From the IMG/VR virus record IMGVR_UViG_2671180637_000009: a DNA stretch of 4,211 nt, one strand, 5' to 3'. Both the position numbers and the translations under genes were made by a program. Within the stretch, counting starts at the first letter, position 1. Each line of letters begins with the position of its first letter. Positions 1 to 4,211 of the stretch are shown here, in pieces. Source of the DNA: a virus (lineage: Duplodnaviria > Heunggongvirae > Uroviricota > Caudoviricetes). The notes beneath the pieces are model-generated. The model searched no databases, had not been told where the DNA came from, and was given only the letters and a program-made list of their open reading frames with translations.

Positions 1-1661
1 GCAACGCCGTCAGGAACACGGCTCACTTTCACCTTCACGCCGTCGGTGACGGACTGGACCTCCACGCTGACCGGATTACCCTCACCGTCAACCAGGCTTA
101 TCAGCGTGGTGCCGGAGGATGGCAGCGTGATTTCACGGTCGAGCGTCAGCGTCCGGGTCTGGCTGTTTACCGCCAGCACGCGCCCGCCGATGCTGATACC
201 GGCATAGTCATCATCACAGATTTCAATGACATCGCCCGGCACATGGCGAAGCCCTTCTGCGCCCACGCTGAAGTCCACGGTCTGCGTTTCCAGCAGTTCT
301 GTTTTAATCAGCCACAGCCCGGCGCGGTGTGCCTGCCCCCGGCTGGTACAGCCAAAGGCATCCATCTTCGTGACGTTACGACCGTAACGGGCAATGGCCT
401 GCGTGTCCTCCACAAGCTCTGTCGCCGTCTCCCAGCCGTTGTTCGGGTCAATCCAGTTCACCTCAACGGCATTATGGCGGTCCTTCAGGGCGCTGAAGCT
501 GTAGCGGAACGGCGCGCCATCATCCGGCATCACCACATTACTGCGGTTATAGGTCCACACCTTATCTGACTGTCGGTCCTGCACGAACGTCAGCGTCTGC
601 CCGTTCCATACCGGCATACAGCGCATCGCCGAGCAGAAATCACTGAGCACATCCCACGCCTTGCGCTGTGTGGTCAGGTACGCATTACAGGTAATGCGCG
701 GCTCCGTGCCGCCAAAGCCGTCCGGCACCGACTGGTCGCAGTACTGGCCGATGACATACAGCGCCCATTTGTCCACATCCGCCGCACCAAGACGTTTCCC
801 CATGCCGTAGCGTGGATGGGTCAGCATATCCCACAGACACCAGGCCATGTTGTTGCTGTATGCCGGTTTAAACGTTCCGTCCCAGATACCGCTGTATTGC
901 CGCGTCTGCGGGTTATAGTTCGACGGCACCTGCAGAATACGCCCGCGCAGATGATAATTACGGCTCACCTGCTGGCTGCCGAACTGCTCCGAATCCACCT
1001 GTACGCCGACCAGTGCCGTGTTCGGGTAGCACTGTTTCACATCGATGATTTCGGTGTATGACGACCAGAGCGTTTTGTTCTGCAGCTGGTCTGTGGTGCT
1101 GTCCGGCGTCATCCTGCGCATCCGGATATTGAACGGGCGCGGCGGCAGGTTATCCACCACCACCGAGGCCAGATACTGTGAAGTGGTTTTACCCTTAATG
1201 GTGATGTCTTTTTCCGTCACCCAGCCACCGTTACGCTGTATCTGAACCAGCAGGCGGACTTCCGACGGATTCCGGTCCCCCTTTGAGGTGGTTTCCACCA
1301 GTGCCTGCACACCGAAGGTAAAGCGCAGACGGTCGATGTTTGCAGACGTGATGGTCCGGGTGATCGGCGTGTCATATTTCACTTCCGTACCCAGCACCGT
1401 CTCGGAACCGGAGGATTCAAATCCCTCCGGCGGAGTCTGCTCCTGCTCACCGGCCCGGAACACCACCGTGACGCCGGAGATATTGGTATTCCCCTCACTG
1501 TCCAGCACCGGCGTACTGTTCAGCAGCACGCTTTTTAACCCATCCACCGGACCTTCAATCGGCCCTTCGCTGATGGCATCGATCACACTCAGCAACTGCG
1601 TGGACTTCAGGTTGTCCTTCGCTTCGCGAGGGGTATGCCCCTTACTGCTGCCTTTACCCAT
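1..1661 (-). CDS. J: Tail tip / host-specificity protein J (central tail fibre), N-terminal ~553 codons; 3' end lies beyond position 1
   Basis: Minus-strand ATG at 1661..1659 (plus-strand 'cat'). Translation begins MGKGSSKGHTPREAKDNLKSTQLLSVIDAISEGPIEGPVDGLKSV... and stays open to the window edge, matching the lambda gpJ N-terminus as I recall it. No stop in this frame, so the track did not list it. GGAG Shine-Dalgarno 8 nt upstream. Confidence 0.93.
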   Translation of the reverse strand, partial: MGKGSSKGHTPREAKDNLKSTQLLSVIDAISEGPIEGPVDGLKSVLLNSTPVLDSEGNTNISGVTVVFRAGEQEQTPPEGFESSGSETVLGTEVKYDTPITRTITSANIDRLRFTFGVQALVETTSKGDRNPSEVRLLVQIQRNGGWVTEKDITIKGKTTSQYLASVVVDNLPPRPFNIRMRRMTPDSTTDQLQNKTLWSSYTEIIDVKQCYPNTALVGVQVDSEQFGSQQVSRNYHLRGRILQVPSNYNPQTRQYSGIWDGTFKPAYSNNMAWCLWDMLTHPRYGMGKRLGAADVDKWALYVIGQYCDQSVPDGFGGTEPRITCNAYLTTQRKAWDVLSDFCSAMRCMPVWNGQTLTFVQDRQSDKVWTYNRSNVVMPDDGAPFRYSFSALKDRHNAVEVNWIDPNNGWETATELVEDTQAIARYGRNVTKMDAFGCTSRGQAHRAGLWLIKTELLETQTVDFSVGAEGLRHVPGDVIEICDDDYAGISIGGRVLAVNSQTRTLTLDREITLPSSGTTLISLVDGEGNPVSVEVQSVTDGVKVKVSRVPDGV

Positions 1662-1669
1662 TCCTCACG

Positions 1670-1673
1670 CTCC
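1670..1673 (-). promoter_or_regulatory. Shine-Dalgarno (GGAG) for J, 8-nt spacer; a second GAGGA sits immediately before the ATG
   Basis: Minus strand reads ...TTTATGGAGCGTGAGGAATGGGTAAA...; the GGAG is plus-strand 'ctcc' at 1670-1673. Confidence 0.6.
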
Positions 1674-1703
1674 ATAAACGACAAAACCGCCCGCAGGCGG
1701 TTT
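1671..1703 (-). terminator. Intrinsic-terminator-like hairpin in the I-J intergenic region (perfect 8-bp stem, 4-nt loop, then a U-rich tract on the coding strand)
   Basis: Plus strand 1684-1703 is aaaccgcc-cgca-ggcggttt, a perfect inverted repeat. On the minus (sense) strand it reads AAACCGCC UGCG GGCGGUUU followed by UGUCGUUUAU. Lies 19 nt after the I stop and ends ~10 nt before the J ATG. Confidence 0.5.
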
Positions 1704-1721
1704 CACATAAAACATTTTGCA

Positions 1722-2363
1722 TCAGCGACCAATCACCACAACCTGACCACCGTCCCCTTCGTCTGCCGTGCTGATCTCCTGAGAAACCACCCGCGACCCC
1801 ACGCGCATTTCACCGTACAGAACGGGCAGAACATTGCCCTGGGCAACCATGTTATCCAGAGAGGAGAAATAGGTGTTCTGCTTACCGTTATCCGTGGTAC
1901 TGGCTGTTGCTGTGCTGGCTTTCGGTGCCAGCATCTGTGCAACACCACCAAGTGTCATCGCCGCGCCCATTGAAAAGAGAATGTCACTGAAAGCGATACT
2001 GATTCCTGGCATCCAGATTGCCGTAGCAATCAACGCCGCACCCAACACCGCCTGAAAAACACCGCTACTTTTGGCTCCCGCAAGACGCGGAACGATGTGG
2101 ATCACTGCACCATTTGCCAGCGGCTCACTAAGACGGGATGATAATTCGTTTTCGCCTGCATCATGCCCGGCAATGCGTACCTGGTACCAGCCGTCGCTCA
2201 GTTTCTGACGAAACGCCGGAAGCTGTGTGGCCAGCGCCCGGATGGCTTCAGCACCCGTTTTCACACGAAGGTCGATGCGGCGGCCAAATCGTTGTAAATC
2301 CCCGTAAAGGCAGATGCGTGCCATGCCCGGTGACGCCAGAGGGAGTGTGTGCGTCGCTGCCAT
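1722..2363 (-). CDS. I: Tail tip assembly protein I (213 aa): N-terminal ubiquitin-like domain, central hydrophobic Gly/Ala-rich segment
   Basis: Track ORF 1722..2363 (-). Begins MAATHTLPLASPGMARICLYGDLQRFGRRIDLRVKTGAEAIRALATQLPAFRQKLSDGWYQVRIAG and ends ...EISTADEGDGGQVVVIGR, as I recall for lambda gpI. Start ATG at 2363..2361 lies inside the 3' end of K. Stop TGA at 1724..1722. Confidence 0.9.
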   Translation of the reverse strand: MAATHTLPLASPGMARICLYGDLQRFGRRIDLRVKTGAEAIRALATQLPAFRQKLSDGWYQVRIAGHDAGENELSSRLSEPLANGAVIHIVPRLAGAKSSGVFQAVLGAALIATAIWMPGISIAFSDILFSMGAAMTLGGVAQMLAPKASTATASTTDNGKQNTYFSSLDNMVAQGNVLPVLYGEMRVGSRVVSQEISTADEGDGGQVVVIGR

Positions 2364-3004
2364 TTGTCGGTATACCTCTCTCGTTTGCTCAGTTGTTCAG
2401 GAATATGGTGCAACAGCTCGCCGTCACCACAGTAAATGGCGGCATGATTCGGCACCGATGAACCAAAACAGCACAGCAGCACATCGCCCGGCTGCGCCGC
2501 TGACAACGGCACCTGATACAGCCCCGTTGCCTCCAGATTATCCAGATAGAGATTCTGACCGTTACGCCACCAGTCATCCTCACGATGAAAATCCGGCATC
2601 TCAATCCCCGCCAGATGGTAAGCGTCCCGGAACAGCGTGTAACAGTCCGTCACCCCGTGCTCAAAGCGCCGCCCGGTAAGATGCGGCACACAGCGGAACT
2701 TGTGAATCGCCCCCCGGCAGACCAGCCACCACGGCAAATCACTCTGCACCTGCAGCCGCCGGTCAGCCTCACTCAGCCAGGGCAGACCACCGGGATGACT
2801 GTGGACCAGCGCCACAATCTCACCCTGCATTTCTGCCTGCAGCCAGTCCTCCGGAGCCATCCGGAAATAATCCTCCGGCTCACCGGAAATATTCACGCAG
2901 GGAAAATATCTTTCCCCCTCCGGCGTTCTCACCACGAAGCCGCACGACTCCGCTGGCGCACATCGCCGGGCGTGCGCCAGAATCGCTGATTCTGTCTCTG
3001 TCAT
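2261..3004 (-). CDS. K: Tail tip assembly protein K, 247-aa form (JAB/MPN metalloprotease-like N-domain plus NlpC/P60-like C-domain); the classical lambda annotation starts internally at 2860 (199 aa)
   Basis: Track ORF 2261..3079 (-). I place the start at the ATG at 3004..3002 (MTETESAILAHARRCAPAESCGFVV...), 4 nt after the L stop. JAMM motif HSHPGGLPWLSEAD (HxH-x7-S-x2-D) at residues 68-81, with the candidate catalytic Glu at residue 19 (PAESCG). NlpC/P60-like Cys (TDCYT) and His (NHAAIY, LLHHIP) in the C-terminal half. The internal ATG at 2860 (MAPEDWLQ...) has GGAGGA 10 nt upstream. Confidence 0.85.
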   Translation of the reverse strand: MTETESAILAHARRCAPAESCGFVVRTPEGERYFPCVNISGEPEDYFRMAPEDWLQAEMQGEIVALVHSHPGGLPWLSEADRRLQVQSDLPWWLVCRGAIHKFRCVPHLTGRRFEHGVTDCYTLFRDAYHLAGIEMPDFHREDDWWRNGQNLYLDNLEATGLYQVPLSAAQPGDVLLCCFGSSVPNHAAIYCGDGELLHHIPEQLSKRERYTDKWQRRTHSLWRHRAWHASAFTGIYNDLAAASTFV

Positions 3005-3008
3005 GGGA

Positions 3009-3707
3009 TTACTGCGAAAGTTTGTTAATGGAAAGGAAGCCGCCAAAGTTGCCGACGTTATTGCGGAACTTACAGCCACTCAGGCATTTGCTGCATTTAT
3101 CCTTCGTGATATCGGACGTCGGCTGGTCATATTCATCCGCGACAGCCGGACCGCTATAACCGCACTCGTCACCGCGATAGGTCCAGGTGCAGGTGTTGGC
3201 CAGCATGATACGTCCCGGAAAAACAGCGCCATCCGTTTCCGTCGGCGTGGACAGTACAAAGGAGGCACTCACCGCGCTCAGTTCGCTGCACTGCTCGATG
3301 CGCCAGCGGCTGATCACCTCCTGCTCCGGATCGGCGTCACTGTTTCCGTTGACGAAGTTCACCGCATCCAGAAAACGGGCGTAAACCTTACGCCGGACCA
3401 CCGTTCCGCCGACCAGACTCTGCAGATCTTCCGCCATCCCGGTGACCATACCGTACAGGTTAGAAACCGTCAGCGTGGGGCGCGTACTGGTGCCTTTGCC
3501 ATTCAGTTCAAAACCGCTCCCCTGAATGGGATACGGCTGATACTGTCGCCCCTGCCAGGTGACCGGCTCACCTTTTTCGTTCTGCTCATTACAGAAAAAA
3601 TAACGTTCTCCACCGACCTCTGTCAGGTCGATTTCCCAGAGCACCACGCTGGCCGACTGCTCCGCACGGGTGCATTCATTCAGTGTTTCCTGCCGGATAT
3701 CCTGCAT
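3009..3707 (-). CDS. L: Tail tip protein L (232 aa) with a C-terminal cysteine cluster
   Basis: Track ORF 3009..3707 (-). MQDIRQETLNECTRAEQSASVVLWEIDLTEVGGERYFFCNEQ...SINKLSQ matches lambda gpL as I recall it. Its ATG (3707..3705) overlaps the M stop TGA (3709..3707) as TGATG. Stop TAA at 3011..3009. Confidence 0.95.
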   Translation of the reverse strand: MQDIRQETLNECTRAEQSASVVLWEIDLTEVGGERYFFCNEQNEKGEPVTWQGRQYQPYPIQGSGFELNGKGTSTRPTLTVSNLYGMVTGMAEDLQSLVGGTVVRRKVYARFLDAVNFVNGNSDADPEQEVISRWRIEQCSELSAVSASFVLSTPTETDGAVFPGRIMLANTCTWTYRGDECGYSGPAVADEYDQPTSDITKDKCSKCLSGCKFRNNVGNFGGFLSINKLSQ

Positions 3708-4036
3708 CAGTTCACCACCTGTTCAAACTCTGCGCTGAACTCAACACGCAGCATACTGACCCGCGACGACCATTTTGCGCAGGTCACCTTTATCTGCCTG
3801 TAACCATAAGGCGGCGTCCACAGAAAGGCCTTCCAGCCCCCGTGCTCAGCCAGAAACGACTCCAGTACCGTGGCCTCCTCACGGGGGACAGAAAGCGTCA
3901 CGCTGTACGTTTTCAGGTTGGCATTCAGCCCGGCAGGCGCTCGCTGGGAATAGCCATCACCAAAGCGCACCTTTCTTACAGAAGGGACCGAAGCCACATC
4001 CATACCGGGTTTCACTTTCCAGCGGAAGGTCTTCAT
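3707..4036 (-). CDS. M: Tail tip protein M (109 aa)
   Basis: Track ORF 3707..4036 (-). MKTFRWKVKPGMDVASVPSVRKVRFGDGYSQRAPAGLNANLKTYSVTLSVPREEATVLESFLAEHGGWKAFLWTPPYGYRQIKVTCAKWSSRVSMLRVEFSAEFEQVVN matches lambda gpM as I recall it. Its ATG (4036..4034) overlaps the H stop TGA (4035..4033) as ATGA. Confidence 0.95.
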   Translation of the reverse strand: MKTFRWKVKPGMDVASVPSVRKVRFGDGYSQRAPAGLNANLKTYSVTLSVPREEATVLESFLAEHGGWKAFLWTPPYGYRQIKVTCAKWSSRVSMLRVEFSAEFEQVVN

Positions 4037-4211
4037 CGTCCACCTCCGGAGAACAGGCCACCATCACGCATCTGTGTCTGAATTTCATCACGGGCACCCT
4101 TGCGGGCCATGTCATACACCGCCTTCAGAGCAGCCGGACCTATCTGCCCGTTCGTGCCGTCGTTGTTAATCACCACATGGTTATTCTGCTCAAACGTCCC
4201 GGACGCCTGCG
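4033..4211 (-). CDS. H: Tail tape-measure protein H, C-terminal 58 codons plus stop; 5' end lies beyond the window
   Basis: Hand translation of the minus strand in the frame beginning at 4209: QASGTFEQNNHVVINNDGTNGQIGPAALKAVYDMARKGARDEIQTQMRDGGLFSGGGR, then TGA at 4035..4033. Matches the lambda gpH C-terminus as I recall it. Not in the track because no start lies within the window. Confidence 0.88.
   Translation of the reverse strand, partial: QASGTFEQNNHVVINNDGTNGQIGPAALKAVYDMARKGARDEIQTQMRDGGLFSGGGR
4043..4047 (-). promoter_or_regulatory. Shine-Dalgarno (GGAGG) for M, 6-nt spacer, embedded in the last codons of H
   Basis: Minus strand reads ...TCCGGAGGTGGACGATGAAG...; plus-strand 'cctcc' at 4043-4047. 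Confidence 0.7.

What the first reader, a model, noticed from the sequence alone, without database searches (positions are those of the whole stretch)
1722..2363. gpI is 213 aa here, possibly about 10 codons shorter than the lambda reference
From memory the lambda I gene encodes 223 aa, and I also recall its central segment as differing in sequence from this one. The N-terminal third (ubiquitin-like beta-grasp region) and the C-terminal third match my recollection closely. The I-J spacing and the K-I overlap have the lambda lengths, so the difference is internal, in or near the Gly/Ala-rich hydrophobic stretch GVFQAVLGAALIATAIWMPGISIAFSDILFSMGAAMTLGGVAQMLAP (about 1926..2063). That would be a small mosaic or deletion patch in an otherwise near-identical module. 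My recollection of the reference length is not certain.
Basis: partly seen in the sequence, partly recalled or inferred. Interest (0 to 1): 0.4.

Follow-up and report, generated by a model that had tools for sequence, protein, structure and literature searches.

The report
Short common allele of lambda gene I
The tail-tip gene I in this lambda-like prophage is 10 codons shorter than in phage lambda because its middle third is a different, anciently diverged, common allele swapped in by recombination, which is ordinary for these mosaic phages.

Summary
The ORF at 1722..2363 (minus strand) encodes 213 aa. Lambda gene I (NC_001416 14773..15444) encodes 223 aa. The two proteins are identical over residues 1-66 and over the last 57 residues, and they differ by a single 10-residue gap. 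The K-I overlap (103 nt) and the I-J spacer (60 nt) equal lambda's.

It is not a deletion in a lambda-type gene. A 270-nt patch (window 1896..2165, codons 67-156) is saturated at synonymous sites against lambda (pS 0.78). The flanks have pS 0.12-0.15 and no amino-acid change. The patch is therefore an old alternative allele placed by homologous recombination.

[quoted passage not shown] This spacer is 31-47 residues across the family. The window has 37, which is mid-range, and lambda has 47, the long extreme.

The same allele, with one residue different, sits in complete E. coli chromosomes. Window-type patches occur in 695 of 5426 E. coli genomes. Sequenced phages carry 213- and 215-codon forms. 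All family-invariant residues are kept.

Verdict: real, already known in kind, low interest.

The parts
1722..2363 (-). Gene I (tail tip assembly / tip plug protein), 213 aa from the lambda-type start; an alternative ATG at 2324 (Met14) would give 200 aa
   Evidence: ORF list. Pfam Lambda_tail_I PF06805, E 5.4e-23, residues 14-97. Collinear with PDB 8iyk chain I, lambda gpI, E 3.5e-104.
1896..2165 (-). Diverged mosaic patch, codons 67-156 (lambda codons 67-166). It covers the last third of the ubiquitin-like domain, the Gly junction, H1, the H1-H2 connection, H2 and the first residues of the plug loop.
   Evidence: DNA alignment. Identity profile. pS 0.78 and dN 0.39 in the patch, against pS 0.12-0.15 and dN 0 in the flanks. 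Translation.
1923..2063 (-). Hydrophobic Gly/Ala-rich segment, codons 101-147 (GVFQAVLGAALIATAIWMPGISIAFSDILFSMGAAMTLGGVAQMLAP), with two hydrophobic stretches corresponding to lambda helices H1 and H2
   Evidence: Translation. Kyte-Doolittle 19-residue peaks of 1.9 (centre 114) and 1.6 (centre 137). H1/H2 are described for lambda in PMC11101478.
1992..1997 (-). Approximate site of the 30-nt length difference (between codons 123 and 124; lambda residues 124-133, AAWGAAIGAG, have no counterpart)
   Evidence: BLASTP and phmmer alignments. The MAFFT DNA alignment places the gap in the same place.
2064..2066 (-). Codon 100 is Ser where lambda and most relatives have Gly (KSSG instead of KSGG). The invariant Gly101 that follows is kept.
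   Evidence: Census of 120 close homologues: SGG 106, RGG 9, SSG 2, HGG 2, NGG 1. G101 invariant, G100 90% or more.
2261..2363 (-). K-I overlap, 103 nt, same length as in lambda
1662..1721 (-). I-J spacer, 60 nt, same length as in lambda and 59/60 identical; contains the hairpin AAACCGCCTGCGGGCGGTTT
2261..3004 (-). Gene K, 247 aa, Prok-JAB plus NlpC/P60 peptidase domains; the predicted processing partner of gpI
   Evidence: Pfam PF14464 (residues 4-98) and PF00877 (111-224). Prediction by Iyer et al. 2006 (PMC1779556).
1..1661 (-). 5' part of gene J (central tail fibre / tip attachment protein), running off the window
   Evidence: Pfam FNIII-A_GpJ and Phage-tail_3. About 97% identical to lambda.

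Best explanation
This is an intact gene I of a lambda-like prophage tail-tip module (H end, M, L, K, I, J start). Its middle third is a different natural allele from the one in phage lambda.

Homologous recombination between lambdoid prophages, using the near-identical flanks, replaced about 300 nt of lambda-type sequence with about 270 nt of a long-diverged version. The 10-codon difference is one feature of that allele, not a recent deletion.

By homology with lambda gpI, the protein has four parts:
- an N-terminal ubiquitin-like domain that is absent or disordered in the mature tail and is probably clipped off at the conserved glycine (Gly101 here), possibly by the JAB peptidase of gpK;
- a plug loop;
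- beta strands woven into gpJ.

The missing 10 residues lie in the H1-H2 connection, which is the length-variable part of the whole family. The short form should therefore work the same way, with a tighter helical hairpin.

Shown here: lengths, alignment, patch boundaries, saturation of synonymous sites, occurrence of the allele elsewhere, conservation of the invariant residues. Inferred: the recombination mechanism, the processing, and the membrane role.
For: Lengths and collinearity are. The sharp drop in identity is confined to 1896..2165, inside a window about 97% identical to lambda. Patch pS is 0.78 and dN 0.39; flank pS is 0.12-0.15 and dN 0.

The same I allele with one residue changed (S79N) lies in the E. 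coli EC12 prophage, which is about 100% identical to the window from about 2512 to 250. The exact protein is on two ENA metagenome contigs. Many 213-aa proteins, or 200-aa ones from Met14, are in the protein collection. The window-type patch covers at least 80% of the query in 695 of 5426 E. coli genomes, and the lambda-type in 2816. Phages PhiR49_1 and Evi have 213- and 215-codon forms.

Length classes of 60, 62, 63, 64, 70 and 72 residues for the IHIVP..QMLAP segment all differ in the H1-H2 connection. Among representatives of distant clusters, the G101-to-G139 spacer is 31-47 residues. The window has 37 and lambda 47. Every invariant column of the close-family alignment is kept.

Structure and function of lambda gpI come from three papers. 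PMC11101478: residues 101 onward are resolved in the closed state; H1/H2 are predicted transmembrane; the plug is 159-175. PMC10721106 and PMC12617516: residues 134/135-223 form a trimeric plug under the tape-measure C-terminal helices. [quoted passage not shown] The JAB cleavage prediction is in PMC1779556.
Against: - No experiment or solved structure exists for this allele.
- My AlphaFold2 model was too poor to show the hairpin (mean pLDDT 47).
- The second hydrophobic peak is lower than lambda's (KD 1.6 against 1.8), and H2 contains Asp127.
- The patch also changes 5 of 9 residues at the start of the plug loop (ASTATAST against ARTPRIQT) and Gly100 to Ser next to the presumed cleavage site, so full functional equivalence is assumed, not shown.
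- The recombination event is inferred from a pattern; no donor with identical patch and different flanks was identified.
Confidence: 0.9

Rival explanations
1. A simple in-frame 30-nt deletion in a lambda-type I gene, within the Gly/Ala-rich stretch.
For: A single 10-residue gap in the protein alignment. The low-complexity Gly/Ala codons could favour slippage. Weak 10-15 nt direct repeats exist in the lambda segment.
Against: The 270 nt around the gap are only about 41-70% identical to lambda, with saturated synonymous sites. Thirty-eight of the 90 aligned codons change the amino acid. The repeats are short enough to be chance. Across the family, lambda is the long form.
Confidence: 0.02
2. 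An assembly or sequencing artefact: a chimeric join of two prophage copies, or a collapsed repeat, that creates a false short gene.
For: E. coli genomes carry a median of 3 and up to 14 copies of this module, which invites chimeric assembly. The window itself switches nearest relative between about 3100 and 2500.
Against: The I allele with its flanks from K to J is 99-100% identical to complete chromosomes of three unrelated E. coli strains. The exact protein recurs on two independent ENA contigs. The reading frame is intact and all invariant residues are present.
Confidence: 0.02
3. A functionally distinct allele kept by selection. Under this reading, the different H1-H2 hairpin and plug loop alter outer-membrane insertion, tape-measure release, or sensitivity to host or prophage blocks on DNA injection, so several alleles coexist in E. 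coli prophages.
For: Several discrete allele classes coexist at high frequency. Sub-segments reassort at fine scale: Evi shares the window's plug loop but has the 215-type hairpin, and P0031 shares the hairpin but not the plug loop. The varied part is the one proposed to contact the membrane (PMC11101478).
Against: There is no sign of positive selection; dN is well below the saturated dS. The interacting partners encoded in the window (gpH C-terminus 100% and gpJ N-terminus about 97% identical to lambda) have not co-varied, which suggests the alleles are interchangeable. Neutral mosaicism is the usual state of lambdoid tail genes.
Confidence: 0.06

Closest known systems
Phage lambda gpI (tail tip assembly protein I, NP_040599, 223 aa; PDB 8IYK/8IYL/8K35/8XCG, 9E7M)
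   Same: Same gene position between K and J, same 103-nt overlap and 60-nt spacer. Residues 1-66 and the last 57 residues are identical. Same domain order: ubiquitin-like domain, Gly junction, two hydrophobic helices, GGVAQMLAP motif, plug, beta strands.
   Different: Codons 67-156 belong to a different allele, with 52/90 residues identical. The H1-H2 connection is 10 residues shorter. KSSG replaces KSGG. The plug loop is ASTATAST instead of ARTPRIQT.
E. coli prophage tail assembly protein WP_050583405.1 (strain EC12; annotated 200 aa from Met14), and the 213-aa / 200-aa protein clusters of E. coli, Citrobacter, Klebsiella and Salmonella
   Same: Same allele. The EC12 copy differs by one residue (S79N) and shares KSSG. 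The other 213-type clusters are 85-90% identical with the same length.
   Different: Upstream of about window 2512 the window is closer to lambda and to the 13E0767 prophage than to EC12. The annotated start codon differs.
215-codon I genes of phages Evi, mEp460 and cdtI, and the 213-codon I gene of PhiR49_1
   Same: Short forms of I in sequenced phages, 86-89% identical in DNA over the whole gene. Evi shares the window's Ubl tail and plug loop.
   Different: The 215-type has a different hairpin (AWWNPxGWLGAAA...). PhiR49_1 has a lambda-like plug loop.
Pseudomonas F-pyocin tip plug protein PA0640 (PDB 25vf chain 9, 200 aa)
   Same: Distant homologue, E 4.3e-23 over residues 11-199. Only its C-terminal part is seen in the particle, and the N-terminal domain is removed by proteolysis (bioRxiv 10.64898/2026.02.24.707460).
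   Different: Low sequence identity, and it belongs to a tailocin rather than a phage.

Membership tests
Lambda tail assembly protein I family (TAPI; Pfam PF06805 Lambda_tail_I) | N-terminal ubiquitin-like beta-grasp domain matching the family profile above its curated cut-off | tested here: met
   81.6 bits against a cut-off of 23.8, E 5.4e-23, residues 14-97, profile positions 2-83 of 83
Lambda tail assembly protein I family (TAPI; Pfam PF06805 Lambda_tail_I) | Conserved glycine at the C-terminal end of the beta-grasp domain (Iyer et al. 2006) | tested here: met
   G96 and G101 are invariant in the alignment and present here. G100 is Ser here, a position that is 90% or more Gly in close relatives and variable in distant ones.
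Lambda tail assembly protein I family (TAPI; Pfam PF06805 Lambda_tail_I) | Gly/Ala-rich hydrophobic linker with two hydrophobic segments ending in GGxxQML | tested here: met
   Kyte-Doolittle peaks of 1.9 and 1.6. The LGGVAQMLAP motif is identical to lambda's. No dedicated transmembrane predictor was available.
Lambda tail assembly protein I family (TAPI; Pfam PF06805 Lambda_tail_I) | C-terminal plug / beta-strand domain collinear with the solved part of lambda gpI | tested here: met
   Residues 126-212 align to PDB 9e7m chains (lambda 134-223), E 4.8e-44. Residues 157-213 are identical to lambda.
Lambda tail assembly protein I family (TAPI; Pfam PF06805 Lambda_tail_I) | Gene lies between K (JAB + NlpC/P60) and J in a tail-tip operon | tested here: met
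   K has Prok-JAB and NLPC_P60. L, M and J carry their Pfam families, in lambda order.
Lambda tail assembly protein I family (TAPI; Pfam PF06805 Lambda_tail_I) | Forms the trimeric plug in the tail-tip lumen; N-terminal domain removed or disordered in the mature tail | not testable with these tools
   Known for lambda and F-pyocin from cryo-EM and mass spectrometry (PMC10721106, PMC11101478, PMC12617516, bioRxiv 10.64898/2026.02.24.707460). The AF2 monomer model here was uninformative.
Lambda-type allele of gene I (223-225 codons) | Central segment SFFTAGATLAAWGAAIGAGGMTGILFSLGASMV, with a 47-residue G101-G139 spacer | tested here: not met
   The window has AIWMPGISIAFSDILFSMGAAMT and a 37-residue spacer. 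DNA identity in the patch is 41-70%.
213-type allele of gene I (AIWMPG hairpin class) | 60-residue IHIVP..QMLAP segment with an xIWMPGxxIxxS[DN] turn | tested here: met
   The identical segment is found in the collection, and most of the 120 closest homologues have 60 residues with this turn.

The most novel reading that the evidence does not exclude
The coexisting hairpin and plug-loop alleles of gene I (213-, 215- and 223-codon classes) might not be neutral. They could be functionally distinct cassettes that tune how the tip plug leaves the tail and enters the outer membrane, or that let a phage evade injection-blocking exclusion or defence proteins. Under that reading they are kept in E. 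coli prophage populations by frequency-dependent selection and shuffled by recombination at a scale finer than one gene.
Probability: 0.07. Interest if true: 0.5.

Novelty: already known. Interest (0 to 1): 0.1.

Why it matters
It matters little beyond annotation. It is a clean example of intragenic mosaicism in a lambdoid tail gene whose boundaries ignore domain borders. It also shows that the lambda reference is the long outlier for the H1-H2 connection of the tip plug protein. Two practical points follow. The natural range of this connection (31-47 residues) tells structural biologists which part of gpI tolerates change. Gene I is annotated with at least four different start codons in public records, so lengths should not be compared without checking the start.

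Tried and rejected
- AlphaFold2 on a 20-sequence alignment gave mean pLDDT 47 and pTM 0.35, with everything after residue 94 below 50. I did not use it and ran no fold search.
- A direct-repeat search, to see whether lambda's extra 10 residues arose by duplication of the GAAAIAG motif, found only 10-15 nt matches at 80-90% identity, which is chance level for Gly/Ala codons. The direction of the indel was judged from the family length range instead.
- The terminator scan did not call the I-J hairpin.
- The KSC64 hit with a 94% identical patch is a degraded prophage remnant and was useless as a flank comparator.
- P0164, a 2783-aa protein with 23 matched stretches, is a repetitive spurious hit, not a relative.
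- No dedicated transmembrane predictor was available, so Kyte-Doolittle averages and the published TMHMM statement for lambda were used.

Full report
**What the window is.** On the minus strand it carries the end of the tape-measure gene H, then M (4036..3707), L (3707..3009), K (3004..2261), I (2363..1722) and the first 553 codons of J (from 1661). Pfam confirms each assignment:
- Phage_min_tail for M and Phage_tail_L for L.
- Prok-JAB plus NLPC_P60 for K.
- Lambda_tail_I for I.
- FNIII-A_GpJ and Phage-tail_3 for J.

A global alignment with lambda (NC_001416) shows 54-60 identities per 60-nt bin over most of the window. A few bins dip to 51-53, and one stretch inside I drops to 19-41 per 60 with a 30-nt gap.

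**Checking the observation.**
- The ORF 1722..2363 encodes 213 aa. Lambda I is 14773..15444, 223 aa.
- BLASTP gives 175/223 identities and one 10-residue gap. Residues 1-66 and 157-213 are identical. phmmer against the PDB gives the same alignment to lambda gpI, 8iyk chain I.
- The K-I overlap is 103 nt in both, and the I-J spacer is 60 nt in both.
The gap lies within it, between codons 123 and 124.

Every factual element of the finding holds, including the recalled reference length. The one correction is that the divergence is wider than the hydrophobic stretch. It runs from codon 67, inside the ubiquitin-like domain, to codon 156, at the start of the plug loop. That is window 1896..2165.

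**Deletion or mosaic?** I aligned codons and applied Nei-Gojobori counting.

| Region | Synonymous difference (pS) | Amino-acid change |
|---|---|---|
| N-terminal flank, codons 1-66 | 0.135 | none |
| Patch, codons 67-156 | 0.78 (saturated) | dN 0.39; 52/90 residues identical |
| C-terminal flank, codons 157-213 | 0.119 | none |

A recent deletion would leave the neighbouring sequence lambda-like, and it is not. The patch is therefore an old alternative allele set between lambda-like flanks. This is the pattern left by homologous recombination among lambdoid prophages.

The window as a whole is such a patchwork. From 4211 to about 3100 it is closest to lambda and to the prophage of E. coli 13E0767, at 95-100% per 100-nt bin. 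From about 2512 to 250 most 100-nt bins are 99-100% identical to a prophage of E. coli EC12.

**Is the allele real and how common is it?**
- The EC12 prophage has the same I protein with one change (S79N), including the unusual KSSG.
- Three complete chromosomes carry the patch at 99.7% identity.
- The exact 213-aa protein is on two ENA metagenome contigs.
- The protein collection holds many 213-aa proteins, and 200-aa proteins that are the same gene called from Met14, at 85-98% identity. They come from E. coli, Citrobacter, Klebsiella and Salmonella, and some clusters have hundreds to thousands of members.
- By megablast, the window-type patch covers at least 80% of the query in 695 of 5426 complete E. 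coli genomes. The lambda-type patch does so in 2816.
- Sequenced phages carry short forms: PhiR49_1 has 213 codons, and Evi, mEp460 and cdtI have 215.

An assembly artefact is thus excluded for the gene itself.

**Where the length varies in the family.**
- Among the 120 closest homologues, the IHIVP..QMLAP segment comes in classes of 60, 62, 63, 64, 70 and 72 residues. All the difference lies between the two hydrophobic stretches.
- A full HMMER scan of 1.84 billion cluster representatives found 3008 relatives at E of 0.001 or better.
- In 46 representatives that keep both anchor glycines, the spacer from the Ubl-terminal Gly (G101) to the GG of the GGxxQML motif (G139) ranges from 31 to 47 residues. 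The window has 37 and lambda 47.

Lambda is the long extreme and this copy is typical. The sub-segments also reassort. Evi shares the window's Ubl tail and plug loop but has the 215-type hairpin. P0031 shares the hairpin but not the plug loop or the C-terminus.

**What the affected part does.** This comes from the literature and was not tested here.
- Iyer et al. 2006 (PMC1779556) described the family as a ubiquitin-like domain, a glycine-rich linker and a C-terminal domain. They predicted that the JAB peptidase of gpK releases the ubiquitin-like domain at its C-terminal glycine.
- Cryo-EM of lambda shows a gpI trimer plugging the tail-tip lumen under the C-terminal helices of the tape measure protein. 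Residues 134/135-223 are resolved in two studies (PMC10721106, PMC12617516).
- According to PMC11101478, residues 101 onward are resolved in the closed state. That paper names two helices, H1 and H2, predicted by TMHMM to be transmembrane, and a plug at 159-175. It proposes that H1 and H2 drop into the outer membrane when the tip opens.

Mapped onto this scheme, the missing residues (lambda 124-133, AAWGAAIGAG) lie just before the start of H2. This is the stretch that two of the three lambda structures could not resolve. That fits a flexible, length-tolerant connection, though this is my inference.

Both hydrophobic stretches survive here, with 19-residue Kyte-Doolittle peaks of 1.9 and 1.6 against 1.8 and 1.8 in lambda. 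All invariant columns are kept, including G96, G101 and LGGVAQMLAPK. The partners encoded in the window have not co-varied: the gpH C-terminus is 100% and the gpJ N-terminus about 97% identical to lambda. This suggests the alleles are interchangeable.

**Limits.**
- My AlphaFold2 model was too poor to use (pLDDT 47).
- No transmembrane predictor was available.
- No donor for the recombination was pinned down.
- The origin of lambda's extra residues by duplication could not be shown.
- The count of 213 depends on the start codon. Public records start this gene at Met1, at Met14, or further downstream. One 213-aa relative (P0034) has Leu at position 14, which favours Met1 in that copy. Distant relatives begin at the Met14 equivalent.

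**Verdict.** The feature is an ordinary, already catalogued allele of a well-studied gene. Interest is low.

Noticed in passing
window 2261..3004 (-), especially about 2865-2875; L001 1634..2376: Gene K is an uninterrupted 247-codon ORF here with a complete Prok-JAB domain plus NlpC/P60, as in E. coli prophages. The lambda reference lacks one base (GAGGC-TATTTCC against GAGGATTATTTCC). That splits the ORF into a 76-codon N-terminal ORF and the annotated 199-aa K, which lacks the first half of the JAB domain. I could not tell whether this is a real lambda frameshift or an old sequencing error.
   Followed up: partly
window 2064..2066 (-), codon 100 of I: Ser replaces the first Gly of the KSGG motif, next to the invariant Gly101 where the ubiquitin-like domain is predicted to be cleaved. 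Only 2 of 120 close homologues have SSG. The EC12 prophage shares it.
   Followed up: partly
window 1..4211: The window changes nearest relative. From 4211 to about 3100 it is closest to lambda and the 13E0767 prophage (95-100% per 100-nt bin). From about 2512 to 250 most bins are 99-100% identical to the EC12 prophage. There is a less similar zone in K between the two. The best whole-window match among 5426 E. coli genomes is only 97.5%.
   Followed up: partly
window 2324 and 2363 (-); L002 4888, L005 2416, L008 1600: Public records use at least four different start codons for gene I: Met1 in lambda RefSeq, Met14 in EC12 (200 aa), and later starts in 13E0767 (191 aa) and PhiR49_1 (180 aa). 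A GAGG lies 11 nt upstream of the Met1 ATG. Nothing comparable precedes Met14.
   Followed up: partly
window 1684..1703, in the I-J spacer: A GC-rich hairpin, AAACCGCCTGCGGGCGGTTT, followed by TGTCGTTTATGG, sits between I and J and is conserved with lambda. The simple terminator scan did not call it.
   Followed up: no
proteins P0001, P0032, P0042 (335-337 aa), P0030 (305 aa), P0092 (226 aa): Some database proteins fuse NlpC/P60 (K) or a terminase-like Pfam domain to the I domain, or carry a frameshift-like insert in the C-terminal domain. These are probably frameshifted or miscalled prophage genes.
   Followed up: no
protein P0164 (2783 aa): A highly repetitive protein matched residues 10-55 of gpI in 23 stretches. 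Inspection shows a translated tandem repeat (LCFGLRRGNLEIFADTI...), so it is a spurious hit.
   Followed up: yes
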